DNA of 37,378 nucleotides from an uncultured virus (IMG/VR IMGVR_UViG_2627853969_000002) (lineage: Duplodnaviria; Heunggongvirae; Uroviricota; Caudoviricetes), in IMG/VR virus record IMGVR_UViG_2627853969_000002, one strand, 5' to 3'. The translations under genes and the position numbers were made by a program. Below the pieces are notes generated by a model that searched no databases, was not told the DNA's origin, and saw only the letters and a program-made list of their open reading frames with translations. Shown here one piece after another: positions 1,601-19,982 of the stretch. The first letter of the stretch is position 1, and each line of letters starts with the position of its first letter.

Positions 1601-1620
1601 ACTTTGCATTGGAGCCACAC

Positions 1621-3464: not shown

Positions 3465-3476
3465 CAGGAGTCACCC

Positions 3477-4314: not shown

Positions 4315-4338
4315 TGCCATCCCAATACACACCCCCTC

Positions 4339-6147: not shown

Positions 6148-6156
6148 CGCTGGACG

Positions 6157-7431: not shown

Positions 7432-8717
7432 CGACCCGTTGCGATCCGGTCGATCAGCCGGAAAATCAGCTGCGCCTGGTGGTGGGGGGACAGGACTTCG
7501 GCGGCTGGAAGAAAATCCGCATCGAGGCCGGAATCGAACGACAGGCACGCAGCTTCGAACTGGAAGTCACTGATCGCTGGCCCGGATCGACAGCAGCGGC
7601 AACGGCGGACACCGCCCCACCCCTGTGGCGCCGCATCCGTCCTTTCGATGCCTGCCAGATTTTCATCGGCAACGACCTGGTGCTAACTGGTTATGTCGAT
7701 GCCACCCCAATCCAATATGACGGCAAACGCATCAGTGTCACCGTCAAAGGCCGCAGCCGTACCTGCGATCTGGTCGACTGCTGTACGCCCGACACCGACC
7801 GCGCACCGACCGCCAGTCACAGCCTGTGGTCAGACGTCAAAGGCAAGGATGGCAAGACCGGCACCGTCGTGACGCCGGCAGCAGCCAACACCAACGTCTG
7901 GCGTAACGCCAAACTGGAAACCATCGCCGCCGCGCTGGCCGCCCCCTATGGCGTGCGCGTGCTGACCGAAATCGATACCGGCGCGCCAATCACCGAACAC
8001 CATGTCCAGATCGGCGAAACCGTGTTCGAGAGCATCGACCGGTTGATGCGCCTGCGCCATGTGTTGTCCACCGACAACGCTCTGGGCGATCTGGTCTTCA
8101 TTGATGTCGGCAGCAGCGGCAATGCCACCACCACGCTCGAGCTGGGCGAGAACATCCAAGATGGCAGCTGCGAACTCGACTTCAAGGCGGTGATGTCCAG
8201 CTACGTCGTCAAAGGCCAGCGTGCAGGCAATGACGATGACTTTGGCGTCGATGCCAACGAGGTCCAGGGGGACGATGACGACCTGGCCGAATTGGAAGGA
8301 GGCATCGCCGACACCGGCACGCCGGTCACCGCCAGTCTGGCCGATGCACGTTCCAAGCGCTTCCGTGTCCTGGTCATCAAGCAAGCCGGCCATGCCGATG
8401 CCGGCACCTGTCAGGACCGCGCGCTGTACGAGCGCGCACACCGCGCCGCCAAAGCGCTCGAAGCCACGTATACGGTCGCCGGCTGGCGCCAAGGTGACGG
8501 ACAACTCTGGAGGCCGAACCTGCTCGTGCGTGTGCGCGACGCGCTGATCGGCTTCGACCAAACCATGGTCATCGCCGAAGCGCATTACCTGCTCGACGAG
8601 GACGGACTACGCACGCAGCTGCGTGTAGGTCCCCCCGATGGTTACCGCTCCAAGGCGGCCAAATCCCCCAAGGGCATCAAGCACGGCGGCGCCGACACCT
8701 GGGCCGATCTGGAATGA
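7428..8717 (+). CDS. Baseplate hub protein (Mu gpP, gp44-like)
   Basis: GGWKKIRIEAGIERQARSF, VLTGYVDATP, GRSRTCDLVDC, YTVAGWRQGDGQLWRPN; ATGA overlap start. Confidence 0.93.
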   Translation: MTTRCDPVDQPENQLRLVVGGQDFGGWKKIRIEAGIERQARSFELEVTDRWPGSTAAATADTAPPLWRRIRPFDACQIFIGNDLVLTGYVDATPIQYDGKRISVTVKGRSRTCDLVDCCTPDTDRAPTASHSLWSDVKGKDGKTGTVVTPAAANTNVWRNAKLETIAAALAAPYGVRVLTEIDTGAPITEHHVQIGETVFESIDRLMRLRHVLSTDNALGDLVFIDVGSSGNATTTLELGENIQDGSCELDFKAVMSSYVVKGQRAGNDDDFGVDANEVQGDDDDLAELEGGIADTGTPVTASLADARSKRFRVLVIKQAGHADAGTCQDRALYERAHRAAKALEATYTVAGWRQGDGQLWRPNLLVRVRDALIGFDQTMVIAEAHYLLDEDGLRTQLRVGPPDGYRSKAAKSPKGIKHGGADTWADLE

Positions 8718-8727
8718 GAGCGCTGGC

Positions 8728-9366
8728 ATGACAGATTTCAACCGCCTGATGGCGCCCTATGCCAGGCGCCTATCGAACATGCTCGCCAGAGGCACCGTGT
8801 CCCTGGTCAACGCGGCAAGCAAGATGCAGAGCCTGCAACTACGCCTGCTGGCCGGCGAATCCAAAGCCGACGTCGAGCATTTCGAGCCGTATGGCTTGAC
8901 CAGTCATCCTCAACCTGGCGCCGAATGCATCGCCCTGTTCCTCGATGGAGACCGCTCCCATGGTGTCGTCATGTGCGTGGCCGACCGACGCTATCGCGTT
9001 AAAAGCTTGGAGAGCGGCGAAGTCATCGTGCATGACGATCAAGGGCAATCGGTCTACCTCATGCGCAATGGCATCAAGCTCACCGACAAGGCCGGATCGA
9101 CCGTGGTGCTGCAAGGTGACGGCAGCGGCGTCATGACCTTCAACGCCGGTCTCACGATCAATGCCAACAGCAAGGTGGTCGGAACACTGGAGGTCACCCA
9201 GAACATCACCTGCCAGGCCAGCATCACGGCGGCACAGGATGTCGGCGATCAGCGCGGCACCAAGACCATGGCAGGCATGCGTGCGGTCTTCAATGCCCAC
9301 ACGCACAGCGGCACCGACAGCCACGGCGACAGTTTCACCAGCAAATCGCCCAATTCAACGCAATAG
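8728..9366 (+). CDS. Baseplate spike / assembly protein V (Mu gp45-like)
   Basis: VEHFEPYGLTSHP.PGAE, GDRSHGVV...DRRYR...L..GEV..HDDQG; C-terminal HTH metal-binding motif (FNAHTHSG). Confidence 0.93.
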   Translation: MTDFNRLMAPYARRLSNMLARGTVSLVNAASKMQSLQLRLLAGESKADVEHFEPYGLTSHPQPGAECIALFLDGDRSHGVVMCVADRRYRVKSLESGEVIVHDDQGQSVYLMRNGIKLTDKAGSTVVLQGDGSGVMTFNAGLTINANSKVVGTLEVTQNITCQASITAAQDVGDQRGTKTMAGMRAVFNAHTHSGTDSHGDSFTSKSPNSTQ

Positions 9367-9381
9367 ACCCACGCCCACACC

Positions 9382-9849
9382 ATGCGCGACTCCATGCCAC
9401 TGACCGCCGTATTCGGCGGCCAGACAACCCCGCTCGGCCTGCTGCAGGACATCGACAACGACAGGGTCAATCCGTTGGTGCGCGCCGTCCTCATCAGTTT
9501 GTTCACCTGGCGGCGGGCCAATGCCGACGACACCTTGCCCGATCCGCGCGGCTTTCGCATGGGCTGGTGGGGCGACACCTACCCCGTGGTGGCCAACGAC
9601 CGCATCGGCTCACGGCTGTGGCTGCTGGCGCGCGCCAAGCTCACCCCAAGCACGGTGCAACGCGCACAGGACTACGCCGAAGAAGCCCTGCAGTGGCTGA
9701 TCGACGACGGTGTCGCTGCGCGTATCGCCGTGCGCGCCGAGCGCCAGGGTCTGTCCACGCTGGCCCTGCAATGCACGCTGTTCGCTGCCGATGGCACCGC
9801 CAACGCCGTGCTGAGGTTCGACAACCTCTGGAGTCTCTTGAATGTTTAA
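9382..9849 (+). CDS. Baseplate protein (Mu gp46-like)
   Basis: RAVLISLFTWRRA, GWWGD, IGSRLWLL.R.KLT, YAEEALQWLIDDGVA. Confidence 0.95.
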   Translation: MRDSMPLTAVFGGQTTPLGLLQDIDNDRVNPLVRAVLISLFTWRRANADDTLPDPRGFRMGWWGDTYPVVANDRIGSRLWLLARAKLTPSTVQRAQDYAEEALQWLIDDGVAARIAVRAERQGLSTLALQCTLFAADGTANAVLRFDNLWSLLNV

Positions 9850-10903
9850 CCGTCCGTCCCTGTCGGACCTGATCAATCGCACCACCAACGACGTGTTCCA
9901 ACGGTTGCAGCAGGACAACGTGTTGCGCCGCGCCGACGCGCAGGTCTACGCCCGCGTCCTGGCGGGTGTGGCCCATGGGCTGTACGGATTTATCGAATGG
10001 ATTAGCCGCCAGATCATCATCGACACCGCCGAGGCCGAGTTCCTCGAGCGCTGGGCATCCATCTGGCGCGTGCAACGTCTGGCCGCAACCCACGCCACCG
10101 GCACCATCACCTTCACCGTGGCCCCGAATGCAGCAGACATTCCGGTCGGAACTCTGGTGCAAACGCTCGATGGCACCCAGTTCCAGACGACAGCCGACAT
10201 CACAGTCAGTGGACTCCAGGCCACGACCAGCGTCACCGCGGTGATCCCGTCCGCCGCCAGCAACAGCTACGCCGGACAGACGGTCAATCTGGTCACCCCC
10301 GTACTGGGTGTGCAGACCACCGCCGTGCTCGGCGCGCTGAGCGGTGGCGGCGACCGCGAGTTAGACGACAGCCTGCGCGAACGCCTGCTCAACCGCATCC
10401 AAAAACCACCACAAGGCGGGGATGCCAACGACTACGTGCAATGGACCCTCGCAGCACCCGGCGGCGGCGCCACCCGCGCCTGGGTCGTACCGGAGCAATT
10501 CGGGGAAGGCACGGTGGGCGTGGCGTTCGTCTGCGATGGCAATGGCGCCGGCGCCGCGATCCTTCCCTCGAGCGCGCAGATCGCCGCCATTACGACCTAC
10601 ATCGACACGGTCCGCCCGGTCACCGCACATGTCACGGTCTATGCACCGCTCGCGGTGCCGATCAATTTTGCAATCGCAGGATTGAGTCCCAACACGCTAG
10701 CCGTTCAACAGGCCGTCGTGGCCGAACTCGCCGATCTGCTCGCCCGTGAAGGTCAACCCGGCGGCACGATCCTGCTGTCGCACATGCGCTCGGCGATTTC
10801 CTCTGCATCACAGGAATGGGATTACGTCCTGCTCACGCCGACCACCAACGTCGTGTTGCCGAGCGGCCAGATCCCGGTCATGGGCAAGGTGGCATGGCAG
10901 TGA
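9842..10903 (+). CDS. Baseplate wedge J-like protein (Mu gp47-like)
   Basis: F.RPSL, HGLYGFIEWI.RQ, GGGD.E.DD.LR.R.L.RIQ.PPQGG...DY..W, TRAW. Confidence 0.95.
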   Translation: MFNRPSLSDLINRTTNDVFQRLQQDNVLRRADAQVYARVLAGVAHGLYGFIEWISRQIIIDTAEAEFLERWASIWRVQRLAATHATGTITFTVAPNAADIPVGTLVQTLDGTQFQTTADITVSGLQATTSVTAVIPSAASNSYAGQTVNLVTPVLGVQTTAVLGALSGGGDRELDDSLRERLLNRIQKPPQGGDANDYVQWTLAAPGGGATRAWVVPEQFGEGTVGVAFVCDGNGAGAAILPSSAQIAAITTYIDTVRPVTAHVTVYAPLAVPINFAIAGLSPNTLAVQQAVVAELADLLAREGQPGGTILLSHMRSAISSASQEWDYVLLTPTTNVVLPSGQIPVMGKVAWQ

Positions 10904-11517
10904 TGCAACAGATCAACCAGCCATTGACCGCCGCCGACTACCTGGCATCGCTGCAAAAACTCTTGCCCTATGGACCCGCCTGGACCGATGACCCCGATGC
11001 GGCCATCACCCGATTACTGACGGGCCTGGCACAGGAACTGGCACGGTGTGATGCCACAAGTTGGCAACTCATCGCGGAGGCCGATCCGCGCACCACCGAT
11101 GCATTGTTTCCCGATTGGGAGCGGGTCGCTGGCTTGCCCGATCAGTGCGTGACCGCACTCAGCGGTCAACAGACGCCTACACAGCGACGAGCCGCCCTGG
11201 TCTCCCGACTCACCCAGATCGGCGGCCAGTCGCGCGCCTACTTCGTGGCCGTGGCCCGCACATTGGGTTCCACCATCACGATCACCGAGGGCTGGCAGAC
11301 CATCGACACCGTCATCTCGCCAGTCAACAACCCACTGACAAATGGCCGCTGGGTCTACACCTGGACGATTCATGTACGCCTCGGGGACACGCGCAGCACG
11401 CTCACGGTCAATGGCAGCGTCTGCGATCCGCTGGCGACTTGGCGCAACACATTGCTCGAGTGCGTGATGCGACGGCTCAAGCCCGCCCACACCACGCTGC
11501 TCTTCAGCTACACCTAG
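10894..11517 (+). CDS. Baseplate protein YmfQ/DUF2313 (Mu gp48-like); alternative start 10903
   Basis: LLPYGPAW, EADPRTT..L.PDWERVAGLPD.C, GGQSRAYF..VA..LG, LEC..RRLKPAHT.LLF.Y. Confidence 0.93.
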   Translation: MAVMQQINQPLTAADYLASLQKLLPYGPAWTDDPDAAITRLLTGLAQELARCDATSWQLIAEADPRTTDALFPDWERVAGLPDQCVTALSGQQTPTQRRAALVSRLTQIGGQSRAYFVAVARTLGSTITITEGWQTIDTVISPVNNPLTNGRWVYTWTIHVRLGDTRSTLTVNGSVCDPLATWRNTLLECVMRRLKPAHTTLLFSYT

Positions 11518-11525
11518 GAGATCAC

Positions 11526-12044
11526 ATGGACAACCGCGTCTGGGAGGCCAATGCCGCCCAAACTCCCCCCGTTCTACCGGCCAATCCATCAATCGGTTAT
11601 CCGACTGACGGCAATCCGACCACCAATACACCGGCCACGACACCTGGGGATTATTGGTTCTATCAGGTCAGCGAAGAAATCCGGAACGTGATTCTTGCTG
11701 GTGGCCTCGTCCCCGATCACAACGCACTCAACCAGCTCGGGCTGGCGATTGAAGCATTGATCAATGTCGCGATCACCAACGCACTGGCGAACTACAAACC
11801 AGCGGCACCACCACCGCCGCCTCCTGCACCACCTCCACCTCCACCTCCACCTCCACCTCCACCTCCACCTCCGCCTCCGCCTCCACCTCCACCTCCGCCT
11901 CCACCTCCACCTCCACCTCCACCTCCGCCTCCACCTCCACCTCCGCCTCCACCTCCACCTCCACCTCCGCCTCCACCTCCACCTCCACCTCCACCTCCAC
12001 CTCCACCTCCGCCTCCGCCTCCGCCGTCCCCACCAGGGGGTTAA
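11526..12044 (+). CDS. Short tail-fibre-like protein (172 aa): Mu-type baseplate anchor plus polyproline C-terminus
   Basis: AGGAG RBS at 11516-11520; GYPTDGNP...AT.PG..WF.QV.EEIRNVI..GGL.PD....NQL..AI is a Mu-like fibre N-terminus; occupies the gp49 position; ends P6-A-P66-SPPGG*. Confidence 0.85.
   Translation: MDNRVWEANAAQTPPVLPANPSIGYPTDGNPTTNTPATTPGDYWFYQVSEEIRNVILAGGLVPDHNALNQLGLAIEALINVAITNALANYKPAAPPPPPPAPPPPPPPPPPPPPPPPPPPPPPPPPPPPPPPPPPPPPPPPPPPPPPPPPPPPPPPPPPPPPPPPPPSPPGG
11808..12035 (+). repeat. Proline-codon microsatellite, mainly (CCACCT)n with interspersed CCGCCT
   Basis: 76 codons of which 74 encode Pro; uninterrupted Pro run at 11829-12026 (66 codons). Confidence 0.97.
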
Positions 12045-12053
12045 TCCAGGGAG

Positions 12054-12653
12054 ATGATCATGTACCTGCAAATGGCCGGTCTGCAGTTCATGCCGACCGG
12101 CGTGATCCTTTACGTCATCAACTACGTCGACATCGATCGACAGCACCTTGCCCGCGAGATCGACGAGCGTTACGAACCTTTCCACCACTGGGGAGACGTG
12201 CCGGACGACTTCAGCTACCACACCCCGTATCGACATCGGCTGCGCGGCAGCGTGGTGGAAGCCGCACAACCGGATCTACACGACTACCGCTTCCACTACC
12301 GACGGTTGCTCCTGATGGACCAAGTGCATGCGGGGTTGCGCTCGCAACGGACCGTGTTCGCCTCACGCTCGTTGCCACTACAGGATCGGGTGCTCGATCT
12401 CGCCCATGCCCAATGCCAGCAGTTTGATGATCATGGAGATGGTGAAGCGTTACCGCTGCTCAGCGCGATGGCGACCGCCTGGAATACCACGCTGGCCACT
12501 GCGGCAACGCGGGTCCGGATGGAATACGCCGACCGACAGGACACCTTGATCCAGTCCGAGGTCCGCCGCCTACATGCGCTGGCGACCGTTTGTGCCGCGC
12601 GTGATCATCACGATCTGGATGCGCTGTTCGTGAGGCACGGCGGCCATGACTGA
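12054..12653 (+). CDS. Hypothetical protein, probable tail fibre assembly chaperone
   Basis: Directly after the fibre; GGAG RBS; C-terminal PLLSAMA.A..TTLA.AA.RV...E.RR..A...V.AA resembles helical fibre-chaperone families. Confidence 0.5.
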   Translation: MIMYLQMAGLQFMPTGVILYVINYVDIDRQHLAREIDERYEPFHHWGDVPDDFSYHTPYRHRLRGSVVEAAQPDLHDYRFHYRRLLLMDQVHAGLRSQRTVFASRSLPLQDRVLDLAHAQCQQFDDHGDGEALPLLSAMATAWNTTLATAATRVRMEYADRQDTLIQSEVRRLHALATVCAARDHHDLDALFVRHGGHD

Positions 12654-13662
12654 CTTACTGGTCGCCCGCAATCTGGTGCAAGGCAATCCGTTCGCGAGCC
12701 GTTTACGCCAGGTCATCGGAGGTGTCCTCACAACCTCGCGCCTGGCATGTAAACCCGATCTGCTGCGCTTTGACGCCTGCTGTCCGATACCCGATGCGAC
12801 AACAACACAGCAGATCTCTTTTGCGCACTGCTGTGATGCCCGCGCGCGCGCGCTGCTCGATGCACATGCACGGCTGCACGTCATGTGGTCTGGTGGAATC
12901 GATTCGACCGTGGCGCTGGTCGCCTTGCTCAAAGCATTGCCTGGCAACGAACTCGACCGGCTCACCGTGTACCTGTCGAGCCACAGCATCGCCGAGAATC
13001 CAGGGTTCTACCAGGCCCACATCGCCGGCAGGCTGTCCGTCCAGCGCACCGTCAGCAAAGTCGGGCTGTACGAGAACATGGTGGTCACCGGGGAACTCGG
13101 TGACCAGTTGTTCGGGTCCGATCTGATGTTGGAGGCCACGCGGCGATTGGGGTTTGAAAGCCTGGCACAGCCACATGCGCTGGTCCTGCCTCGTCTATTC
13201 GGCAGCATCGCTGCAAATGAGCAGACCGGTACCGCACTCTATCGACGCTACGCGCCAATCGCCGACGAAGCCCCTTACCCCCTGGTCAGCGCACAGGATT
13301 TCCTGTGGTGGTGGAACTTCTCCCAAAAATGGCAGCACGTGAAGTACAGGCAACTGCTCTATGAGCCCCCAGGTTCGGACTATCGCGCGCTGCTCGGCAA
13401 GATCCAGCACTTCTTCGACACACCGGCATTCCAGCATTGGAGCATCACCCATCCCGCCGACAAACTTGGCGCCAGCATCGACACCTACAAAATGCCGGCC
13501 AAACGCTACATCGTCGCCTTCACCGGCGATCAGAGCTATCTGACCAAGGTGAAGATCGGTTCGCTGTGCAAGGTGTTCAAGTATCCACCGGTGGCCGCTA
13601 TCACCACCGATGGCACTTCGCTCGATCAGGCCGGCTTGCAGGCGTTCATCCGTTCTGACTGA
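12646..13662 (+). CDS. Asparagine-synthetase-like N-type ATP pyrophosphatase (PP-loop), no glutaminase domain
   Basis: VMWSGGIDST PP-loop and VVTGELGDQLFG (cf. AsnB SGEGADELFG); 338 aa with no Ntn domain. Confidence 0.8.
   Translation: MTDLLVARNLVQGNPFASRLRQVIGGVLTTSRLACKPDLLRFDACCPIPDATTTQQISFAHCCDARARALLDAHARLHVMWSGGIDSTVALVALLKALPGNELDRLTVYLSSHSIAENPGFYQAHIAGRLSVQRTVSKVGLYENMVVTGELGDQLFGSDLMLEATRRLGFESLAQPHALVLPRLFGSIAANEQTGTALYRRYAPIADEAPYPLVSAQDFLWWWNFSQKWQHVKYRQLLYEPPGSDYRALLGKIQHFFDTPAFQHWSITHPADKLGASIDTYKMPAKRYIVAFTGDQSYLTKVKIGSLCKVFKYPPVAAITTDGTSLDQAGLQAFIRSD
13583..13660 (+). repeat. Direct repeat copy 1 (3' end of the PP-loop gene)
   Basis: Aligns to 14492-14568 with 13 substitutions and 1 indel over 78 nt (~82%, hand alignment). 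Confidence 0.85.
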
Positions 13663-13713
13663 ACCAGCACTTCGGCTCGCGCGGATTGTTGCTCAGATCA
13701 AGCTGCGCCTCGA

Positions 13714-14409
13714 TTAACTTTCTTCCGCCATCACATCGGCATGAAGAATGGCGTAATCGATTAAATCAACCACCTGTTTAGCACGCTCCTGACGGCCGCG
13801 TAAATAAATTCCAAATAAATAAAAAAATGCAACTGGAATCAAAATAATAAAAAAGTACACACTGCGATTATCTTTCATGAAATTCGATGCAGCTATGAAT
13901 AAGGCTAAAAACGCAGGAAATAGACCATTCCTACGAAGATCTCCGATAAGAAAGCCGACACGACCATCCAAATTATCAAAATTGTTCCGATATTGTAGCA
14001 ATGCGTATTCCAACGTAGCTTTTTCATAGCATAGAAGCTGATTCAGGAAACCAACGTCGGACAACATATCGTTTTTTAGACGCGACAATTTCACAGACGC
14101 CCCCTGTTTACGGCGACGAAATAAAAATATAGCCATATCCAAAATTTGGATAAACATGTAAATAATACCAAAAAAAATCAAAAACCAACGAAATAATTTG
14201 ATAAAAAATGGATTTATTAGCGGCAGAAACATATATTGAATCAACTCGGAAATAATCAACATTATCCCAAATACAAAACCTCCAAAGATAATCAAAAATT
14301 CCAGGCGACGTATCCATTCCAGCGATATGAATGCCTCTTTATCACGCTTAACAAGCGTCATTTCCTCCAGCAGCGAGAACAGCGAAACGAGAGATTCCTG
14401 CTTGAGCAT
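13714..14409 (-). CDS. AT-rich hypothetical membrane protein (about 4 TM segments), moron-like
   Basis: 231-aa ORF antisense to the operon; two pairs of Phe/Ile/Leu-rich hydrophobic segments; much lower GC than flanks (e.g. 11/60 GC at 13801-13860). Confidence 0.8.
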   Translation of the reverse strand: MLKQESLVSLFSLLEEMTLVKRDKEAFISLEWIRRLEFLIIFGGFVFGIMLIISELIQYMFLPLINPFFIKLFRWFLIFFGIIYMFIQILDMAIFLFRRRKQGASVKLSRLKNDMLSDVGFLNQLLCYEKATLEYALLQYRNNFDNLDGRVGFLIGDLRRNGLFPAFLALFIAASNFMKDNRSVYFFIILIPVAFFYLFGIYLRGRQERAKQVVDLIDYAILHADVMAEES

Positions 14410-14491
14410 GTTGGTATCGAGTTCGTTGATCGAGCTGTAAAGGTATCAGGCAAACGGGACGCTGATTGGATTTCTGGCGTCCCCATCCATC

Positions 14492-14568
14492 ATCCGCCGA
14501 CAACCGCCATCACCACCAATGGCACTGCGGTCGACCAAGCCAGCTTGCAGGCGTTCTCCGCTCTGACT
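14492..14568 (+). repeat. Direct repeat copy 2 (degenerate relic of the PP-loop gene 3' end)
   Basis: Translates PPTTAITTNGTAVDQASLQAF versus PPVAAITTDGTSLDQAGLQAF; 1-nt deletion near the end. Confidence 0.85.
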
Positions 14569-14666
14569 CCCCACCCCGCTTCGACTTGAGCGGACTGTTG
14601 CTGAGTCATCCCCCCTCGCTCCCCACTCTCTATTTTTCAACCCATCCTTCCAAAGGAGGAATCGCC

Positions 14667-14993
14667 GTGCCTTTCACCGTGACGAAAACCACCACCCGCC
14701 CGGCCAACGAAGTGCCTGGATTCAAAGACAGCGCCGATCTCGATCCCGAGGTCGCAACGTCCATCGCCAACGTCAGCCATGCGGTTCGCACGCATCCCGC
14801 CGTGCTGTCCCGCTCGGTCGTGATGTCAGCCGACGGACTCACCAAAACGACGACCACCGTCTGGGAAAGCCAAGAGGCATATGACAGCTTCCAGGCTGCC
14901 AACAGCAGTGACCTGAGCAAGGTTTCCAGCGCCGCCAGCGTCTACAACAAGGCCAACGGCATCGTCGTCAACACCGCAAAATCCGGAGCCTGA
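14667..14993 (+). CDS. Small hypothetical protein (108 aa), possible ABM / dimeric alpha-beta barrel fold
   Basis: GTG start with strong AAGGAGG RBS at 14653-14659; TTTVWESQEAYDSF resembles the ABM W.S.EA...F motif. Confidence 0.6.
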   Translation: MPFTVTKTTTRPANEVPGFKDSADLDPEVATSIANVSHAVRTHPAVLSRSVVMSADGLTKTTTTVWESQEAYDSFQAANSSDLSKVSSAASVYNKANGIVVNTAKSGA

Positions 14994-14995
14994 TC

Positions 14996-15700
14996 ATGAA
15001 AACCGGCGCCTACATCGATGCCCGGCACAGCATGTACCCGTGCCAGTCCTGGTTGCTGTCCAAACCCATCAAGAACCACATCACCATCCCGCCGTTTTGC
15101 ACCCTGTATGGCTTTGTCGTTTCCGCCCCCACAGATCGGACGGCATCGATCATCGTGGGCGCAGGCAGCACCGACAAACCGAAAGTTCTGCGTCAAGCTA
15201 ACCAGGGGCAATACTTCTGCCATGCCACCGGCAGCGAGCATGCCGTGCTGATGCTGGACGAAGGCGTCATGGCCTTTGCCGTGATCCGGCATGGGTTTCG
15301 TGGACAAGGACTGGTCGGCGGGCCAATCGAGATGTCTGGACGGCTGTGCTACATCGACAACTGCTCGGACTCGTTGCTGGTCTACCCGCCGCGCAAAGGC
15401 GACCCAAGCCTCAACCACTTGTCGTTCCCTGCCGGTGTGCGCCAGTCCTTCCACATCCACCCCTCGATCCGCTTAGGCGTGGTCGCCAGCGGCTCCGGCT
15501 TTGCCTGCTTTGCAGGTCGCGAAATCCCACTCACCGCCGGCACCTTGTTCTGCATCGAAGAGCGCGAGTTGCATCGCTTCCGCACTGACGATCAGCCGCT
15601 CAATGTCATCGTGTTCCACCCCGATGGCGATTGGGGACCCACCGATCAAGCTCACCCGATGCTCAACCGCACCTATCTGTCGGCTGCGCATCATGCATGA
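14996..15700 (+). CDS. Cupin domain protein
   Basis: QSFHIHPSIRLGVVASGSG...LTAGTLFCIEERELHRF: cupin motifs 1 and 2 with HxH...H metal ligands. Confidence 0.8.
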   Translation: MKTGAYIDARHSMYPCQSWLLSKPIKNHITIPPFCTLYGFVVSAPTDRTASIIVGAGSTDKPKVLRQANQGQYFCHATGSEHAVLMLDEGVMAFAVIRHGFRGQGLVGGPIEMSGRLCYIDNCSDSLLVYPPRKGDPSLNHLSFPAGVRQSFHIHPSIRLGVVASGSGFACFAGREIPLTAGTLFCIEERELHRFRTDDQPLNVIVFHPDGDWGPTDQAHPMLNRTYLSAAHHA

Positions 15701-16364
15701 TCCTGCAACCATTCGAATGACCTATCCCGATGCACAGCTGTGTGCCGGCGAACGGGCGCACCAGGTGCTGATGGCGATCCGCTCTCCCAACGTCGTCGTG
15801 CTGGGTGGATTCCTGGACCAAGTCGATTGCCGCGATCTGATCGATCTGGCCGGACCGCGAATGAAACGCTCATCCGTCGTGCATCACGCGCAGGGGACGC
15901 GCATCGATGAGACGCGCACCAGTTCCGGTTGCCATTTCCGGCGCGGGGAAGTGGCGCTGGTGGCCGACATCGAGCAGCGCATCGCCGAACTCACAGGCAT
16001 ACCAGTGGAAAACGGCGAAGGTCTGCAGGTACTGCACTACCTGCCGGGACAGCACTACATCCCGCATTGGGATTACTTCCCACCAGAAAGCCCAACCTCG
16101 GCGGACATCGTCCGACCAGAATTTGGCGGGCAGCGCATCGCCACGTTCATCGCCTATCTGAACACCGTTCCCCTCGGCGGAGAGACGGAGTTCCCCAGTG
16201 CCGGCATCAAGGTGGCCGCCGTCCAGGGCAATGCCTGCTTTTTCTCCTACCGCACGGCAGACGGCCTGCCCGATCCCCTGACGTTACACAGTGGTAATGC
16301 CGTCATCGACGGCGAGAAGTGGATCGCCGTCAAGTGGCTGCGCGAGGGGCGCTACACCCGATAG
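15693..16364 (+). CDS. Prolyl 4-hydroxylase (2OG-Fe(II) dioxygenase, P4Hc family), 223 aa
   Basis: RTSSG, ENGEGLQVLHY..GQ.Y.PHWDYF (HxD), GGQRIAT...YLN.V..GGET.FP, DP.TLHSG (distal His), GEKW (2OG-binding Lys); start overlaps cupin stop. Confidence 0.92.
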   Translation: MHDPATIRMTYPDAQLCAGERAHQVLMAIRSPNVVVLGGFLDQVDCRDLIDLAGPRMKRSSVVHHAQGTRIDETRTSSGCHFRRGEVALVADIEQRIAELTGIPVENGEGLQVLHYLPGQHYIPHWDYFPPESPTSADIVRPEFGGQRIATFIAYLNTVPLGGETEFPSAGIKVAAVQGNACFFSYRTADGLPDPLTLHSGNAVIDGEKWIAVKWLREGRYTR

Positions 16365-16435
16365 GGATGACCCAACCATAAAGCTGGCCTTTGCAACTCA
16401 GGCCGCATTTCACGTTTCAACCAGAGGAATCAAAC

Positions 16436-16729
16436 ATGAGTGATGTCTGTGAATGCGGCCGTCCTATTGACCGGCTGCATGGCCTACAAACCACACGCCA
16501 TGCCTGCGGCGTGCTGTCGGAAAGCGACCGGCAGGCCCTGGCCGATGCGCTGTGCGAGGCGTTCGAGAAATCCGCGCCCGTGCTGTCCCAAGCACTCTCC
16601 GACGCACTACAGGCTCAGTTCGAGCGCGTGATCGGACGCGGCGTAGTCGGCTGGACAAAACGCATCCTGATCGCCGGCCTGCTCGCGCTCGCCGGCTACA
16701 CCTTTACCAAGAGCGGAAGCTTCAAATGA
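16436..16729 (+). CDS. Small protein with one C-terminal TM helix, putative holin/antiholin-like lysis protein
   Basis: GAGGA RBS; RILIAGLLALAGYTF hydrophobic segment; ATGA-coupled to the next gene. Confidence 0.5.
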   Translation: MSDVCECGRPIDRLHGLQTTRHACGVLSESDRQALADALCEAFEKSAPVLSQALSDALQAQFERVIGRGVVGWTKRILIAGLLALAGYTFTKSGSFK

Positions 16730-17202
16730 ACATCGTGATCACCCGAAAACACTCCAGCCCCAATGGCACGCCCGGCGAGTTGATCGCCACGAACGATGCT
16801 GGCCAAACCTTTACCTGCGACACCCTGGAACTGCCATGGCAGAACAACGCGCCAGGCGTGTCCTGCATCATGAACGACCGCTACCGCGCCACGATCTGGC
16901 ACTCCGATCACCTCGACTGCGACGTGCTGCGTTTGGAGGACAAGCACGGGCGGCGGAACTGCCTGATCCACTGCGGAAATTTTGCCGGCAATGTGTCTGA
17001 AGGCATGGAAACCCAGGTGCATGGATGCACGCTGGTCGGTCGCCGTTACGGGGCGCTGGTCAACGACGACGGGGGCGCGCAACTGGCCATCCTCGACAGC
17101 CGCGTGACGCTGACCAGGCTGATCGCCTTCGTCGGCAGCGGTGACCACACCGTCGACTACCAATGGGCACAGGGTTGCGAACCTGCCGCCTGCCACGCTT
17201 GA
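16726..17202 (+). CDS. DUF5675-family protein, putative endolysin
   Basis: GT.GEL...F.CDTLELPW.NN...SCI...Y, GR..CLIHCGN, GCTLVG motifs; lies between two membrane-protein genes. Confidence 0.75.
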   Translation: MNIVITRKHSSPNGTPGELIATNDAGQTFTCDTLELPWQNNAPGVSCIMNDRYRATIWHSDHLDCDVLRLEDKHGRRNCLIHCGNFAGNVSEGMETQVHGCTLVGRRYGALVNDDGGAQLAILDSRVTLTRLIAFVGSGDHTVDYQWAQGCEPAACHA

Positions 17203-17212
17203 GGAGATCACC

Positions 17213-17590
17213 ATGGACATCAGCGGCATCGGTACGGCGGCGGAAGCCGCCAAAAGCATCATCGGCATGTTCTTCCCCGACAAGACCGAGGAGGACAAGG
17301 CCAAGTTGGCGGCAACGCTTGCGCTCATTCAGACGCAGACCGACATCGACAAAGCAGAGGCGCAGAGTTCCGACCCTCTACAACACTGGCGCGGGGGATT
17401 GGGCTGGGTCTGCGTCGCAGGGTATGGCTGGAACTTCCTCGGCGGGCCACTGACGAACGCGGTCGCGGCGGTCGTCGGTCACCCTCTCAACCTGCCCGCA
17501 CTGGACATCGGGCCGCTCGCCACCCTCACGCTCGGCATGTTGGGATTGGGCGGACTGCATGTGGCCGAGCGTGTGAAAGGAGCGGCGTAA
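17213..17590 (+). CDS. Holin, 3TM (GTA-holin) family
   Basis: FPDKT, Q..IDKAEAQS, WR..LGWVC, LGMLGLGGL...ERVKG; GAGGAG RBS. Confidence 0.85.
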   Translation: MDISGIGTAAEAAKSIIGMFFPDKTEEDKAKLAATLALIQTQTDIDKAEAQSSDPLQHWRGGLGWVCVAGYGWNFLGGPLTNAVAAVVGHPLNLPALDIGPLATLTLGMLGLGGLHVAERVKGAA

Positions 17591-17660
17591 CGACTTACGG
17601 CAAGTACAGTGATCCAGTGCAGGACTCATGCGCGCGCTGCATCTCCAGATGGACGTGCGT

Positions 17661-17689
17661 TTGACAGATCCGGGACAATGTCGTATCCA
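17661..17689 (+). promoter_or_regulatory. Possible sigma70 promoter of virB6 unit (second copy at 18497-18525)
   Basis: TTGACA-17 bp-TATCCA conserved in both copies while the spacer diverges; the -10 box is weak. Confidence 0.35.
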
Positions 17690-17966
17690 ATAGGCTCACG
17701 GCTTGCACGTCGGTATCCCCTGCGCATAAGGACCATGGCTTGAGCAGGCACCCCATCCCCGAATCAGCTTCAGGACGCCCCCGTCAGTCGTGGGCGCATG
17801 TATGTATGGGCAATCTACGTGCCTGGCGCATCCATTGCGCCAGGTATCTGCCACGCGCGCTGCATCTGGTTCAGGTCGTGCCAACGCCTTACTGGTATCG
17901 CCCCTGCCCAACTGTTCTCCCCATTCACTAGATTTCGTTTACCACTCTCAATAAAGGCGCAAGGCC

Positions 17967-18440
17967 ATGAGCATGTTCGATGGATCGATGAATTGGTTAC
18001 ACCCCCTGGCGGATACCAGCCTGGGGGATTACGTCTTCTTCCGGCTGATCAACAACTACCTCAGTAACCAGATCGACACCTTCGGCATGGACGTGATGGC
18101 CCGCGCGATGCAGTGGGTAAGCGTCATCGCTTTGACCGCCACCACCTTCTGGGTGCTGTTGCTGGGCTATCGGATCGCCAGCGGACAATTACGCGAATCG
18201 GCCATGGCCACCATGATCAAGGCCGGCAAGGTGACGGTGATCCTGGGCATTGCGGCCGGCATCGGCGCCAACGGCACGCTGCTGCATAAAACCATGACCG
18301 ACGGTCTGGATAAGGAAATCCATTGGCTGTTCACCGGCCAGAAGGACAGCACCGCCGCCGACGCCATCGACGAGAACCTCACCTACACCCAATTGGCGCT
18401 GAGCACCTTGGACGCGATCCAGGTGGACCCCAACGACCCG
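17967..18440 (+). CDS. virB6: VirB6/TrbL type IV secretion protein, copy 1 (5' fragment, cut by assembly N)
   Basis: 158 aa identical to copy 2. Confidence 0.8.
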
Positions 18441-18491
18441 NTATCAGGAGTGAATTGACCGCCGAATCGTCCCGATCTTCACGCGGCACCA

Positions 18492-19283
18492 TGCGTTTGA
18501 CAGCCCCGGCACAATGCCGTATCCATAAATCAAACGGCTTGCACGTCGGCATCATCTGCCCATAAGGACTATGGCTTGAGCAGGCACCCCACCCCCGAAT
18601 CAGCTTCAGGACGCCCCCACCCCCCGTCGGCCGTGGACGCATGTATGCGTGGGCAATCTACGTGCCTGGCGCATCCATTGCGCCAGGTATCTGCCACGCG
18701 CGCTGCATCTGGTTCGGGTCGTGCCAACGTCTTACTGGTATCGCCCCTGTCCAACTGATCTCCCCATTCACTAGATTTCGTTTACCACTCTCAATAAAGG
18801 CGCAAGGCCATGAGCATGTTCGATGGATCGATGAATTGGTTACACCCCCTGGCGGATACCAGCCTGGGGGATTACGTCTTCTTCCGGCTGATCAACAACT
18901 ACCTCAGTAACCAGATCGACACCTTCGGCATGGACGTGATGGCCCGCGCGATGCAGTGGGTAAGCGTCATCGCGTTGACCGCCACCACCTTCTGGGTGCT
19001 TTTGCTGGGCTATCGGATCGCCAGCGGACAATTACGCGAATCGGCCATGGCCACCATGATCAAGGCCGGCAAGGTGACGGTGATCCTGGGCATTGCCGCC
19101 GGCATCGGCGCCAACGGCACGCTGCTGCATAAAACCATGACCGACGGCCTGGACAAAGAAATTCATTGGTTGTTCACCGGCCAGAAGGACAGCACCGCCG
19201 CCGACGCCATCGACGAGAACCTCACCTACACCCAATTAGCGCTGAGCACCTTGGACGCGATCCAGGTGGACCCCAACGACCCG
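18492..19283 (+). repeat. virB6 unit copy 2
   Basis: See copy 1; CDS offset is 843 bp. Confidence 0.92.
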
Positions 19284-19882
19284 GAAACCATCAAAAAGAA
19301 AGAAAACGCGCTGCTGCTGGCCGGCTTCGGCACCGCTGGCCCGCCGATCATGGCTGGGGTGATGCTGCTGATGTTCAAGTTCACCATGGCCTTCCTGATA
19401 GGGGTGGGGCCAATCTTCATCCTGTTCCTGATCTTCGACCAGACCAAGGACCTGTTCAAACGCTGGCTGTTCTATGTGATCGGCACGTTGTTTTCGATGT
19501 CGGTACTGTCGGTGGTCACAGCAATCGCATTGAAGATGACGGCCAGGATCGCGGCTGCCTACTGGGGGGCGAAGATCATCTCGCTAGGCAATGCGGAAGG
19601 CTTGTCCTCGCAGGCATTGCAGCAGGGCTGGGCAGGATTGATTGCCACCACCCTGATCGTCGTCCTACCCCCAATCGGGGCAATATTGTGGCAAGGCAGC
19701 ATGGCCAACTTCATGCACTTCTCCGTCTTCAATCCCGCCTCGGTCCCCGGACCGCAGGGGCAACCACCTGGGTCTTATACGCCACCGCAGGCGAGTGAAA
19801 ATAATCATAGAAATTTAGCGAATTCCTCAACAGTAAATTCAGAAACAGCAGGAAGATTCAAAGGGCCAGAGTCTACGCAATC
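18810..19882 (+). CDS. virB6: VirB6/TrbL type IV secretion protein, copy 2 (3' end lost in gap)
   Basis: Polytopic membrane protein with GPIFILFLIFDQTKDLFKRWLFY signature; PGPQGQPPGSY motif typical of Xanthomonadales VirB6. Confidence 0.88.
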
Positions 19883-19982
19883 NNNNNNNNNNNNNNNNNN
19901 NNNNNNNNNNNNNNNNNNNNNNNNNNNNNNNNNNNNNNNNNNNNNNNNNNNNNNNNNNNNNNNNNNNNNNNNNNNNNNNNNN

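What the first reader, a model, noticed from the sequence alone, without database searches (positions are those of the whole stretch)
11526..16364. Candidate phage-encoded tail-fibre modification system: polyproline fibre, prolyl 4-hydroxylase, PP-loop ATPase, cupin and ABM-like protein
Seen: between baseplate gp48 and the lysis genes, where receptor-binding proteins normally lie, a fibre made of an anchor plus polyproline is followed by five co-oriented genes. Several are tightly coupled (12653/12646 and 15700/15693 overlap; 2 bp between 14993 and 14996), and one is an intact P4H. Established: monomeric plant, algal and chlorovirus P4Hs hydroxylate poly-L-proline type II helices; AsnB-like synthetase domains adenylate carboxylates; cupins are often metal oxygenases or isomerases. 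Inference: enzyme and ideal substrate are co-expressed late, so the virion may carry a hydroxyproline-rich, further decorated fibre whose binding specificity comes from post-translational chemistry rather than a folded tip. I do not recall such a system being described, but could not search.
Basis: partly seen in the sequence, partly recalled or inferred. Interest (0 to 1): 0.9.

Follow-up and report, generated by a model that had tools for sequence, protein, structure and literature searches.

The report
Polyproline tail fibre with modifying enzymes
A prophage in a Xanthomonas genome has, in place of the usual folded tail-fibre tip, a rod of about 75 prolines, followed by a genuine proline hydroxylase and an unstudied enzyme set that many uncultured phages keep beside their host-recognition genes, so host recognition here may depend on chemistry added after translation.

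Summary
After baseplate gp48 lies a 172-aa protein made of a tail-fibre anchor plus about 75 prolines ending in Gly-Gly. Five co-oriented genes follow: an orf199 protein of no known family, an AsnB-like PP-loop synthetase, a weakly ABM-like protein, a bicupin and an intact collagen/plant-type prolyl 4-hydroxylase (P4H). Lysis genes come next.

The same gene order occurs in 11 of 11 relatives that reach far enough (Xanthomonas, Comamonas, Ralstonia, Undibacterium, IMG/VR contigs). All 13 fibres are 157-182 aa. Their tails vary (polyPro, or (TP)n/(AP)n/(VP)n plus polyPro) and always end in Gly.

P4H travels only with this fibre, so hydroxylation of the fibre is the best reading (about 0.55). Those genomes are one lineage, so this is a single observation.

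The PP-loop, bicupin and orf199-like genes are a separate, large, uncharacterised phage module of 1,945 representative clusters. It lies beside tail or adhesin genes in 36 of 78 loci, often after Gly-rich gp38-like adhesins, and has neither P4H nor this Pro-rich fibre in 73 of 79 loci. Its chemistry and target are unknown.

This scan has noted phage polyproline fibres with P4H before, on other DNA.

The parts
10891..11517 (+). Mu gp48-type baseplate wedge protein (context; the ORF is open from 10816)
   Evidence: PF10076 E 1e-29; phrog_203 E 2e-55
11526..12044 (+). Fibre, 172 aa: an N-terminal baseplate-anchor domain of about 90 aa, then an 82-residue Pro-rich tail ending SPPGG
   Evidence: PHROG tail-fibre N-terminus hits. 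Conventional 326-347-aa fibres share the anchor at 59-62% identity. Thirteen orthologues of 157-182 aa all end in Gly.
11806..12022 (+). (CCACCT)n hexanucleotide array that encodes the polyproline
   Evidence: TRF period 6, 36.2 copies. The run is 66, 74 and 83 CCN codons in three strains. Codon use is CCT 34, CCA 29, CCG 12, CCC 0, against mostly CCG/CCC in neighbouring genes.
12060..12653 (+). orf199-like protein of no known family. An AGGGAG ribosome-binding site lies within the 15 nt after the fibre stop codon.
   Evidence: No Pfam, PHROG, NCBIfam or PADLOC hit. hhalign gives 92% probability to a 244-aa family that precedes PP-loop genes in unrelated phages. It is found in 13 of 79 loci by hmmsearch. 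Junction.
12646..13662 (+). AsnB-like PP-loop ATP pyrophosphatase: synthetase domain only, no glutaminase domain
   Evidence: SGGIDS is invariant in 33 sequences. Model pLDDT 91.8. Best structural matches are TsnB9 Z 12.8, beta-lactam synthetase Z 12.2, human ASNS Z 12.1, CarA Z 10.2 and AsnB Z 9.9; all other PP-loop enzymes score Z 6.7 or less.
13583..13647 (+). 65-nt direct repeat, copy 1 (the 3' end of the PP-loop gene). Copy 2 lies at 14492-14556 (82% identical). The two copies flank the inserted cassette.
13714..14409 (-). Low-GC gene for a 231-aa membrane-like protein. It is an insertion found only in the Xanthomonas copies and probably not part of the module.
   Evidence: GC 0.50-0.53. 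Absent from the 9 non-Xanthomonas relatives that reach this region. One or two copies are present, at only about 50% amino-acid identity between strains. No family hit.
14667..14993 (+). 108-aa protein, possibly ABM/ferredoxin-like
   Evidence: Pfam ABM E 0.15. Atlas top cluster has ABM on 40% of members, score 0.93. A homologue also lies beside a PP-loop gene in the unrelated locus L066.
14996..15700 (+). Bicupin with a conserved His/His/Glu/His site in the C-terminal barrel
   Evidence: Cupin_2 28.8 bits against a 27.2 cut-off. Q150, H153, H155, R159, H193, H208 and H220 are invariant and E191 is at least 90% conserved in 25 sequences. Model pLDDT 89.7. Many bicupins match at Z 14-16.
15693..16364 (+). 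Prolyl 4-hydroxylase (2OG-Fe(II) oxygenase), 223 aa
   Evidence: PF13640 E 9.8e-11. Chlamydomonas P4H 2jig/3gze E 7e-43 and Bacillus anthracis P4H E 1e-35; His-x-Asp, distal His and Lys align. H125, D127, H199 and K209 are invariant in 13 orthologues.
16436..17590 (+). Lysis cassette that closes the operon: a 92-aa membrane protein, DUF5675 (16726-17202) and a 3-TM holin (17210-17590)
   Evidence: No terminator-like site on the + strand between 11300 and 17700.

Best explanation
This is the distal end of the late (tail) operon of a Mu-like temperate myovirus. Its only fibre gene encodes a baseplate anchor followed by a 65-90-residue proline-rich rod that ends in an invariant C-terminal glycine. 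Where homologous fibres have a folded receptor-binding domain, this one has only the rod. Two enzyme sets are co-transcribed behind it. (1) A lineage-specific collagen/plant-type prolyl 4-hydroxylase. I infer that it converts prolines of the rod to 4-hydroxyproline in the cytoplasm before tail assembly, which would stiffen the polyproline-II rod and give it a hydroxyl-rich binding surface. (2) A module of an orf199-like protein, an AsnB-like adenylating synthetase and a bicupin, with an ABM-like protein added in this lineage. This module is widespread in uncultured phages, and in two of its clades it sits directly behind fibre-tip adhesin genes. By fold it should adenylate a carboxylate and form an amide. 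In 12 of 13 Pro-rich tails the only carboxylate is the C-terminal Gly, so I propose, as the weakest step, that this terminus is amidated or ligated. Shown: the gene content, conservation, family memberships and contexts. Inferred: every enzyme-substrate link. My sub-odds are: the fibre is a real virion protein, 0.85; P4H acts on it, 0.55; the PP-loop module acts on it, 0.3.
For: The fibre anchor matches tail-fibre N-termini and is 59-62% identical to the anchors of conventional 326-347-aa fibres. Thirteen orthologous fibres from gamma- and betaproteobacterial hosts keep their length (157-182 aa), a Pro-rich tail and a terminal Gly (GG in 11, QG in 1, DG in 1), while the repeat type changes between polyPro, TP, AP and VP. 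It is the only ORF in window 1-18000 with 12 or more Pro in any 30 residues. The P4H has E 7e-43 to Chlamydomonas P4H with catalytic residues aligned. The gene order is identical in 11 of 11 relatives that reach far enough. P4H is present in only the 5 loci of this lineage among 79 PP-loop loci. Independent cases I checked: 2 of 80 viral loci with 20 or more consecutive CCN codons carry a PF13640 oxygenase within 1.5 kb of the polyPro gene. One of them, L146, follows a 1,701-aa tail fibre. The PP-loop protein is AsnB-like, Z 10-13 against 6.7 or less for other PP-loop enzymes, with an invariant SGGxDS. A tail, fibre or baseplate gene lies within 4 genes in 36 of 78 loci. A Gly-rich (at least 20%) or Pro-rich neighbour lies within 5 genes in 28 of 78 loci, plus 5 Mu-like loci that my ORF caller mis-framed. 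In the cultured Pseudomonas phage Cygsa01 the order is distal long-tail-fibre subunit, then a 31%-Gly protein, then two PP-loop genes. In a FastTree of 64 sequences the tail-adjacent contexts form two clades (supports not examined). Tight coupling and the absence of + strand terminator-like sites fit one late transcript.
Against: All 13 fibre/P4H genomes are one phage lineage, so their co-occurrence counts once. The PP-loop module lacks P4H and this fibre in 73 of 79 loci, and 42 of 78 loci have no tail gene nearby; these include T4-like contexts next to SbcCD and peptide deformylase, and contexts next to RNR and SegE. Only 2 of 80 polyPro viral loci have a P4H-type gene nearby. Bicupin fold matches are non-specific. 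No glycosyltransferase is present. A run of 66-83 consecutive Pro codons, mostly the locally rare CCT and CCA, may be poorly translated. A 6-nt repeat unit keeps the frame by itself, so in-frame length variation within Xanthomonas is weak evidence of selection. RNA-library contigs cover the region but cannot show transcription. P4H relatives of about 50% identity are chromosomal genes in records titled Comamonadaceae and related bacteria, and their substrates are unknown.
Confidence: 0.4

Rival explanations
1. Only the P4H is fibre-directed, or none of the enzymes is. On this view the orf199-like, PP-loop and bicupin genes (with the ABM-like gene) are a mobile accessory cassette that acts on a host molecule or a small metabolite. 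The cassette lands near fibre genes because that is a common insertion hotspot for phage accessory genes.
For: The module occurs in quite different neighbourhoods: T4-like SbcD-SbcC-PPloop-x-cupin-peptide deformylase in 14 loci, RNR/SegE in 8 loci, and other non-tail contexts, giving 42 of 78 loci without a tail gene. The nearest solved relatives, TsnB9, beta-lactam synthetase and carbapenam synthetase, act on small molecules. The same intergenic spot has accepted an unrelated low-GC membrane gene in Xanthomonas.
Against: Adjacency to fibre-tip adhesin genes is kept across unrelated tail types (Mu-like, SU10-adaptor podovirus-like, J-type fibre, T7-like fibre, Cygsa01) and is structured by clade. 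There is tight translational coupling from the fibre into orf199 and from orf199 into the PP-loop gene. No PADLOC defence model matches, apart from a generic 2OG domain model on the P4H.
Confidence: 0.3
2. The fibre gene is a decaying remnant. A microsatellite expanded in a truncated fibre gene, the protein has no function, and the phage adsorbs through other proteins such as the gp45 spike.
For: The tract is a pure hexanucleotide microsatellite with length polymorphism. Its codon usage is atypical. There is no folded C-terminal domain, whereas anchor homologues have one.
Against: Thirteen genomes in hosts of two bacterial classes, with 70-99% identity elsewhere in the module, keep an open frame of 157-182 aa. 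They use different Pro-rich repeat types, share the same terminal Gly and keep the same 12-15-nt junction to the next gene. No other fibre gene lies between the baseplate and lysis genes.
Confidence: 0.08
3. The enzymes serve translation or host takeover rather than the virion. For example, P4H could hydroxylate a translation factor, as I recall being reported for some bacterial prolyl hydroxylases and EF-Tu. Alternatively the polyproline tract could act as an EF-P-dependent throttle on the coupled downstream genes.
For: A long polyPro run must stall ribosomes (established knowledge of EF-P, recalled). The downstream gene starts 15 nt after the fibre stop codon. In T4-like phages the module sits next to peptide deformylase.
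Against: The P4H is closest to collagen/plant-type enzymes. The anchor domain argues for a structural protein. No EF-P-modifying family was recognised in the module. My search for EarP in two related genomes was uninformative, because the control genomes also gave nothing.
Confidence: 0.05

Closest known systems
Chlorovirus PBCV-1 prolyl 4-hydroxylase and that virus's Pro-rich repeat proteins (Eriksson et al. 1999). I saw it only as a citation in a passage of PMC9301287; the details are recalled.
   Same: A virus-encoded monomeric P4H together with virus-encoded proline-rich repeats as presumed substrate. PDB 5c5t, a chain named only 'Prolyl 4-hydroxylase' (which the scan's earlier notes give as the PBCV-1 enzyme), matches at E 1.9e-12.
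   Different: That is a eukaryotic virus and its substrate proteins are not fibres with a baseplate anchor. Here it is a temperate phage of bacteria, the substrate candidate is the sole tail fibre, and the closest solved relatives are the algal and Bacillus enzymes.
Chlamydomonas reinhardtii P4H-1 (PDB 2jig, 3gze) and Bacillus anthracis P4H (3itq, 5hv0)
   Same: E 7e-43 and 1e-35. The alignment covers residues 25-217, and the iron ligands and the 2OG-binding Lys are conserved.
   Different: The phage enzyme is the bare catalytic domain of 223 aa. Chromosomal relatives at about 50% identity carry an extra N-terminal domain of 70-90 aa. That the algal enzyme prefers poly-L-proline and (Ser-Pro)n substrates is recalled, not tested here.
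AsnB-family synthetase domains: asparagine synthetase B, beta-lactam synthetase, carbapenam synthetase, TsnB9. Lasso-peptide cyclases belong here too (recalled).
   Same: PP-loop SGGxDS motif and the fold of the synthetase domain, Z 9.9-12.8. Carboxylate adenylation followed by amide formation is the expected chemistry.
   Different: No glutaminase domain. No Pfam Asn_synthase match at E 0.01 or better. It has its own invariant motifs (TGExGDQ, WWxN, YK). Its conserved partners are a bicupin and a 200-aa protein of no known family. No lasso-type protease is present.
T2/T6/S16-type gp38 adhesins (Pfam PF05268): glycine-rich fibre-tip proteins
   Same: In other phages the PP-loop/bicupin genes follow Gly-rich gp38-like proteins (PF05268 E 4e-10; phrog_2056 'host specificity'). 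Here they follow a Pro-rich tip. Both sequence types favour polyproline-II-like conformations (recalled).
   Different: The window's fibre has no gp38 domain, and no enzyme partner is known for gp38 adhesins.
Collagen-like tail-fibre proteins of prophages, for example in E. coli O157 (PMC3368898; search listing and abstract only)
   Same: Prophage fibre proteins built from proline-containing repeats.
   Different: Those are Gly-X-Y triple-helix repeats flanked by folded domains and have no co-encoded hydroxylase. Here there is no Gly periodicity and a P4H is encoded in the same operon.

Membership tests
Collagen/plant-type prolyl 4-hydroxylase (2OG-Fe(II) oxygenase, PF13640) | Domain match above the curated cut-off | tested here: met
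   42.9 bits against a cut-off of 27, E 9.8e-11
Collagen/plant-type prolyl 4-hydroxylase (2OG-Fe(II) oxygenase, PF13640) | Full-length similarity to solved P4Hs | tested here: met
   2jig/3gze E 7e-43; 3itq/5hv0 E 1e-35; human P4HA2 catalytic domain 7zsc E 1e-19
Collagen/plant-type prolyl 4-hydroxylase (2OG-Fe(II) oxygenase, PF13640) | His-x-Asp...His iron triad and 2OG-binding Lys | tested here: met
   PHWDY aligns with PHYDY, LHSG with LHGS, and KWIAVKW with KWSATKW. H125, D127, H199 and K209 are invariant in 13 orthologues.
Collagen/plant-type prolyl 4-hydroxylase (2OG-Fe(II) oxygenase, PF13640) | Hydroxylation of peptidyl proline | not testable with these tools
   Needs an enzyme assay or mass spectrometry.
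AsnB-like PP-loop synthetase | SGGxDS ATP-pyrophosphatase motif | tested here: met
   S82, G83, G84, D86 and S87 are invariant in 33 sequences
AsnB-like PP-loop synthetase | Fold of the AsnB C-terminal synthetase domain | tested here: met
   VIA Z 9.9-12.8 to 7ylz, 1jgt, 9b6c, 1q15 and 1ct9, well above other PP-loop folds. Foldseek E 1e-4.
AsnB-like PP-loop synthetase | N-terminal Ntn glutaminase domain (glutamine-dependent amidotransferase) | tested here: not met
   The protein is 338 aa, and the model aligns only from target residues about 153-178 onward. It is therefore not a complete asparagine synthetase B.
AsnB-like PP-loop synthetase | Pfam Asn_synthase (PF00733) match | tested here: not met
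   No hit at E 0.01 or better. A 568-aa relative gives only E 0.051.
Cupin superfamily (bicupin) | Cupin domain match and double beta-barrel fold | tested here: met
   Cupin_2 28.8 bits against 27.2. Z 14-16 to bicupins 1sfn, 4e2q, 1rc6 and 3h7j over 190-200 residues.
Cupin superfamily (bicupin) | Metal-binding His/Glu residues | tested here: inconclusive
   H153, H155 and H193 are invariant and E191 is at least 90% conserved. The geometry was not examined.
ABM (antibiotic biosynthesis monooxygenase) domain | Domain match | tested here: inconclusive
   PF03992 E 0.15, 12.7 bits against a cut-off of 23.1. Atlas score 0.93, with ABM on 40% of the top cluster's members. Not folded.
Phage tail fibre | N-terminal baseplate-attachment domain, with the gene placed after the baseplate wedge genes | tested here: met
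   PHROG tail-fibre families; anchor homologues on 326-347-aa fibres; position after gp48
Phage tail fibre | Folded shaft and receptor-binding C-terminal domain | tested here: not met
   Residues 91-172 consist of Pro with 3 Ala, 1 Ser, 1 Lys and 2 Gly
Lasso-peptide / RiPP maturation system | AsnB-like cyclase together with a leader protease (B2) and a recognition element (RRE) | tested here: inconclusive
   An AsnB-like enzyme is present. No protease family was found in the module. The fold of orf199 was not determined.

The most novel reading that the evidence does not exclude
The receptor-binding tip of this fibre is made by chemistry, not by folding. On this reading it is a hydroxyproline-rich polyproline-II rod whose invariant C-terminal glycine is adenylated by the AsnB-like enzyme and then amide-linked to ammonia, a small ligand or another protein. 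More generally, the roughly 2,000-cluster PP-loop/bicupin family would be a phage-wide maturation system for low-complexity (poly-Gly or poly-Pro) fibre-tip adhesins.
Probability: 0.15. Interest if true: 0.9.

Novelty: new variant of a known kind. Interest (0 to 1): 0.68.

Why it matters
P4H genes are among the abundant 'auxiliary' genes of aquatic viromes, and a 2022 survey states that how viruses use them 'remains cryptic' (PMC9301287, passage read). This prophage offers an unusually clean enzyme-substrate candidate pair. The P4H sits in the same late operon as a fibre that is nothing but an anchor and a proline rod. The pair also occurs in cultured, named bacteria (Comamonas phosphati, Undibacterium spp., Xanthomonas), so it can be tested directly. 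If confirmed, host recognition by a phage would depend on a post-translational modification of the fibre, which sequence-based host-range prediction and fibre engineering do not take into account. Separately, the work brings out a large protein family with no Pfam model: 1,945 representative clusters and only one cultured phage, where it is annotated as MnmA. This is an AsnB-like adenylating enzyme with a bicupin partner that repeatedly sits behind fibre-tip adhesin genes, and it is a new target for studying how adhesins mature.

Tried and rejected
Searches that found nothing or little:
- Megablast of 8600-17600 against 50,697 phage records gave no match.
- tblastn of three PP-loop forms against cultured phages found only Cygsa01, and nothing for the 568-aa form.
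- PADLOC gave nothing except a generic 2OG model on the P4H.
- NCBIfam gave nothing above cut-off.
- The Atlas search for orf199 returned only unnamed clusters.
- The fibre anchor was found in 4 of 300 genomes of the host's family: two close matches and two weak ones at E about 1e-6.
- The search of earlier findings by sequence found nothing.
- Literature searches and passages of PMC7824862 and PMC3482391 contain no description of such a system.

Tests that were negative:
- The N-terminal 255 aa of the 568-aa PP-loop proteins show no profile similarity to orf199-like families.
- Iterated hmmsearch did not join the 'unk211' and 'unk204' neighbour families to orf199. hhalign links them only indirectly, at 73-88%.
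- Stop-codon read-through joining the fibre to orf199 was considered, because both genes are in the same frame in 13 of 13 genomes. I rejected it: the spacer is simply a conserved 15 nt, and the one 12-nt variant (L012) has two consecutive stop codons.
- A signal peptide as a difference between phage and chromosomal P4Hs was rejected, because the chromosomal N-terminal extension is not a signal peptide.

Tools or data that gave no usable answer:
- The EarP (PF10093) search in two related genomes was uninformative, because the controls also gave nothing.
- RNA: four RNA-library runs hold contigs over the region. Two of these libraries contain contigs of up to 82-87 kb (13.7 kb over this stretch), which suggests genomic DNA. 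The other two hold short low-depth pieces over the fibre, orf199, PP-loop, P4H and lysis genes. Contigs cannot show transcription.

Full report
**What is there**

The window opens inside a Mu-like myovirus prophage. In order it encodes a head completion protein, tail terminator, sheath, tube, tape measure, DNA-circularisation protein, gpP/gp44 hub, gp45 spike, gp46, Baseplate_J and gp48.

Directly after gp48 comes a 172-aa ORF at 11526-12044.
- Its first 90 or so residues match the N-termini of PHROG tail-fibre families, with E down to 7e-9.
- Those residues are 59-62% identical to the anchors of three conventional fibres of 326-347 aa that continue into folded C-terminal domains.
- In the window the anchor is followed only by Lys-Pro-Ala-Ala, about 75 prolines, and Ser-Pro-Pro-Gly-Gly-stop.
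- The tract is a (CCACCT)n array: period 6, 36.2 copies.
- It uses CCT and CCA for 63 of 75 Pro codons, against 39 of 157 in eight neighbouring genes.

Five co-oriented genes follow the fibre.
- orf199. Its true start is probably 12060, with an AGGGAG ribosome-binding site in the 15 nt after the fibre stop codon.
- A PP-loop protein, overlapping orf199 by 8 nt.
- A 108-aa protein.
- A cupin, after a 2-nt gap.
- A P4H, overlapping the cupin by 8 nt.

A lysis cassette follows. No terminator-like site lies on the + strand between 11300 and 17700; all nine sites found are on the minus strand.

It lies in a GC trough of 0.50-0.53, against about 0.61 in the flanks. It is flanked by an 82%-identical 65-nt duplication of the 3' end of the PP-loop gene.

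**The individual proteins**

P4H
- It reaches PF13640 at E 9.8e-11.
- It aligns over residues 25-217 with Chlamydomonas P4H (2jig/3gze, E 7e-43) and with Bacillus anthracis P4H (E 1e-35). The His-x-Asp, distal His and Lys positions are conserved and invariant in 13 orthologues.

PP-loop protein
- It has no Pfam or NCBIfam family.
- Its SGGIDS motif is invariant.
- Its AlphaFold model (pLDDT 91.8) matches AsnB-type synthetase domains: TsnB9 Z 12.8, beta-lactam synthetase Z 12.2, human asparagine synthetase Z 12.1, carbapenam synthetase Z 10.2 and E. coli AsnB Z 9.9. All other PP-loop enzymes score 6.7 or less (Foldseek agrees).
- It has no glutaminase domain.

Cupin
- It is a bicupin (pLDDT 89.7).
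- Q150, H153, H155, R159, H193, H208 and H220 are invariant, and E191 is nearly so.
- Its fold matches many bicupins equally well at Z 14-16: DUF861/ureidoglycine aminohydrolase, BacB and ring-cleaving dioxygenases. The fold therefore gives no specific function.

The 108-aa protein is only weakly ABM-like. orf199 has no family match in any library.

**Relatives of the whole module**

The order baseplate J, gp48, fibre, orf199, PP-loop, ABM-like, cupin, P4H, 92-aa protein, DUF5675, holin is kept in 11 of 11 relatives whose sequence reaches that far. A twelfth, L007, ends at the PP-loop gene. The eleven are:
- two genomes of the window's genus (L004 at 98.6% and L005 at 93% nucleotide identity);
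- five IMG/VR contigs (L008-L012);
- four genome records titled Comamonas phosphati, uncultured Ralstonia and two Undibacterium.

The minus-strand membrane gene occurs only in the three Xanthomonas copies, as one or two copies of only about 50% identity. It is a later insertion.

The 13 fibres are 157-182 aa.
- The three Xanthomonas tails are pure polyPro, with runs of 66, 74 and 83 CCN codons.
- The others are (Thr-Pro)n, (Ala-Pro)n or (Val-Pro)n repeats followed by polyPro.
- All 13 end in Gly: Gly-Gly in 11, Gln-Gly in 1, Asp-Gly in 1.
- In 12 of 13 the Pro-rich part contains no Asp or Glu, so its only carboxylate is the C-terminus.

Composition, length and terminus are thus kept while the repeat sequence changes freely. 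This argues for a translated, selected protein and against a decaying gene. Within Xanthomonas the 6-nt repeat unit preserves the frame by itself, so length variation there is weak evidence of selection.

**Is P4H tied to the fibre?**

For a link:
- P4H occurs in 5 of 79 viral loci that hold a PP-loop relative. These are exactly the loci of this lineage (tblastn; HMM built from 120 P4H homologues).
- The fibre is the only Pro-rich ORF in the first 18 kb of the window.

Against weighing this heavily: all these genomes are one phage lineage.

As an independent test I scanned viral contigs for 20 or more consecutive CCN codons. I looked for P4H-type genes in those 80 loci. Two of 80 have one within 1.5 kb.
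- L095 looks like a contig of a large eukaryotic virus. A P4H at 34% identity lies 224 nt upstream of a membrane-anchored protein with 26 prolines.
- L146 is a phage contig. A 1,701-aa fibre with an endosialidase-chaperone domain is followed by a protein with a 30-proline run and then a PF13640 oxygenase at E 4e-10.

So the pairing recurs but is rare among polyPro-coding viral DNA.

The scan's own earlier notes list several uncultured phages with Pro-rich fibre proteins next to P4H-like genes. These are unchecked AI notes. I treat them as leads that agree with this reading, not as evidence.

My literature searches found no description of a phage P4H-fibre pair. One virome paper states that the viral use of P4H 'remains cryptic' (PMC9301287, passage).

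**The PP-loop/bicupin module is a separate, widespread entity**

Family size and distribution:
- A profile of the PP-loop family finds 1,945 representative clusters at E 0.001 or better, of which 980 reach 1e-30, among 1.84 billion representatives.
- In IMG/VR, 558 of 625 pattern matches encode relatives.
- All 120 listed homologues lack a Pfam domain.
- Among 50,697 cultured-phage records only Pseudomonas phage Cygsa01 has it, in two copies annotated MnmA.

Partners:
- The bicupin is found in 43 of the 79 loci, mostly 1-2 genes from the PP-loop gene.
- An orf199-like protein is detectable in 13 of 79 loci. Profile comparisons at 73-92% suggest that other 200-aa neighbour families are distant relatives.

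Contexts:
- In 36 of 78 indexed loci a tail, fibre or baseplate gene lies within four genes. The contexts include SU10-adaptor podovirus-like contigs (fibre, one or two Gly-rich gp38-like proteins, cupin, a 568-aa PP-loop protein, a second fibre), a J-type central fibre, a T7-like fibre, a baseplate wedge and the Mu-like lineage.
- The other 42 loci have no tail gene nearby. They include 14 T4-like loci (SbcD, SbcC, PP-loop, x, cupin, peptide deformylase) and 8 loci next to RNR and SegE.
- A Gly-rich (at least 20%) or Pro-rich protein lies within five genes in 28 of 78 loci, plus five Mu-like loci that my ORF caller mis-framed.
- In Cygsa01 the order is baseplate wedge, distal long-tail-fibre subunit, a 31%-Gly protein, PP-loop, a 90-aa protein, PP-loop.
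- In a FastTree of 64 distinct PP-loop sequences the tail-adjacent contexts fall into two clades. One holds the Mu-like lineage with the J-fibre locus. The other is a large clade spanning several tail types. The non-tail contexts fall into two other clades (support values not examined; many loci are close relatives).

**How it most likely works**

Shown: the gene content, family memberships, conservation and contexts above. Inferred: everything about substrates.

1. The fibre is an anchor with a polyproline-II rod of 65-90 residues. That is roughly 20-28 nm at the recalled 3.1 A per residue.
2. The P4H, which has no other evident Pro-rich target in the phage, hydroxylates the rod before assembly (odds 0.55).
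3. The AsnB-like enzyme should adenylate a carboxylate and form an amide. On this tail only the invariant C-terminal Gly is available, so C-terminal amidation or ligation is the most concrete proposal (odds 0.3). The bicupin might act as an oxygenase or as an ammonia or amine donor, and the orf199-like protein as an adaptor.

The main rival (0.3) is that the PP-loop module is an accessory cassette with a non-fibre target that merely inserts at the fibre hotspot. The non-tail contexts and the small-molecule substrates of its nearest solved relatives favour this view. The clade-wide adjacency to adhesin genes and the translational coupling argue against it.

Minor rivals:
- A decaying fibre gene (0.08).
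- A role in translation or host takeover (0.05).
- Read-through fusion of fibre and orf199, which I considered and rejected.

**Limits**
- No chemistry and no expression is shown. RNA-library contigs cover the region but cannot prove transcription.
- Neighbour annotation rests on one representative per cluster and on a simple longest-ORF gene caller of my own. It failed on the GC-rich Mu-like loci.
- Supplementary files of the papers were not consulted.

**Verdict**

The P4H-fibre pair is a credible, testable enzyme-substrate candidate in cultured hosts. The 'system' is really two units: a lineage-specific P4H, and a widespread, uncharacterised AsnB-like/bicupin module that is recurrently linked to fibre-tip adhesins.

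Noticed in passing
window 13583-14556 (gene 13714-14409, minus strand): A low-GC cassette encodes a 231-aa protein with several hydrophobic segments. It is inserted between the PP-loop and ABM-like genes and flanked by 65-nt direct repeats (82% identical) that duplicate the 3' end of the PP-loop gene. It is present as one or two copies of only about 50% identity in three Xanthomonas genomes and absent from the betaproteobacterial relatives. It matches no family in Pfam, PHROGs, NCBIfam or PADLOC. It looks like a swappable moron, possibly for exclusion or defence.
   Followed up: partly
window 17798-18910 and 17967-20438: Two near-identical copies of an 89-aa ORF (17798-18067 and 18641-18910) and of the first ~160 residues of a TrbL/VirB6 protein. 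The first TrbL/VirB6 copy stops just after a single N at 18441. This looks like a tandem duplication or an assembly artefact just past the prophage lysis genes. Runs of N also lie at 19883-19982, 28560-28659 and 37185-37284.
   Followed up: no
window 19985-25790 (minus) and 25751-36484 (minus): Host genes lie beyond the prophage: a non-ribosomal peptide synthetase fragment (C, A and PCP domains) and a two-partner-secretion filamentous haemagglutinin-like protein of more than 2,600 aa (TPS, ESPR and haemagglutinin repeats).
   Followed up: no
L095 6001-7402: A contig that looks like a large eukaryotic virus (RING/IBR-like zinc-finger protein, sugar-nucleotide enzymes). A membrane-anchored P4H lies 224 nt upstream of a 172-aa membrane-anchored protein with 26 consecutive prolines.
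   Followed up: partly
L146 1704-8537: A phage contig in which a 1,701-aa tail fibre with an endosialidase-chaperone domain is followed by a 229-aa protein with a 30-proline run and, about 470 nt further on, a PF13640 oxygenase (E 4e-10). DUF7796 and DUF6065 proteins come next.
   Followed up: partly
L212 (Pseudomonas phage Cygsa01, PP179332.1 11421-14448): Two genes annotated 'tRNA-specific 2-thiouridylase MnmA' are distant members (25-30% identity) of the phage AsnB-like PP-loop family. They lie right behind a gp37-like distal fibre subunit and a 31%-Gly protein. The MnmA annotation is probably wrong.
   Followed up: partly
L055, L059, L061, L037, L039, L047, L048: Several phage contigs carry two to four tandem paralogues of the PP-loop gene, each often preceded by its own protein of about 210 aa. 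This suggests that enzyme-partner pairs duplicate together.
   Followed up: no
window 8638-9366: The gp45-type spike protein gives a weak match (E 4e-4, below cut-off) to the middle domain of T4 short tail fibre gp12. This could matter if the polyproline fibre is not the primary adhesin.
   Followed up: no
P0153, P0157, P0191, P0220 (chromosomal P4H relatives): P4Hs at about 50% identity, which occur in records titled Comamonadaceae and related bacteria, carry a conserved N-terminal domain of 70-90 aa (consensus like ELRQWI..Q...G.....L...M...GW) that the phage enzyme lacks. Its function is unknown.
   Followed up: no
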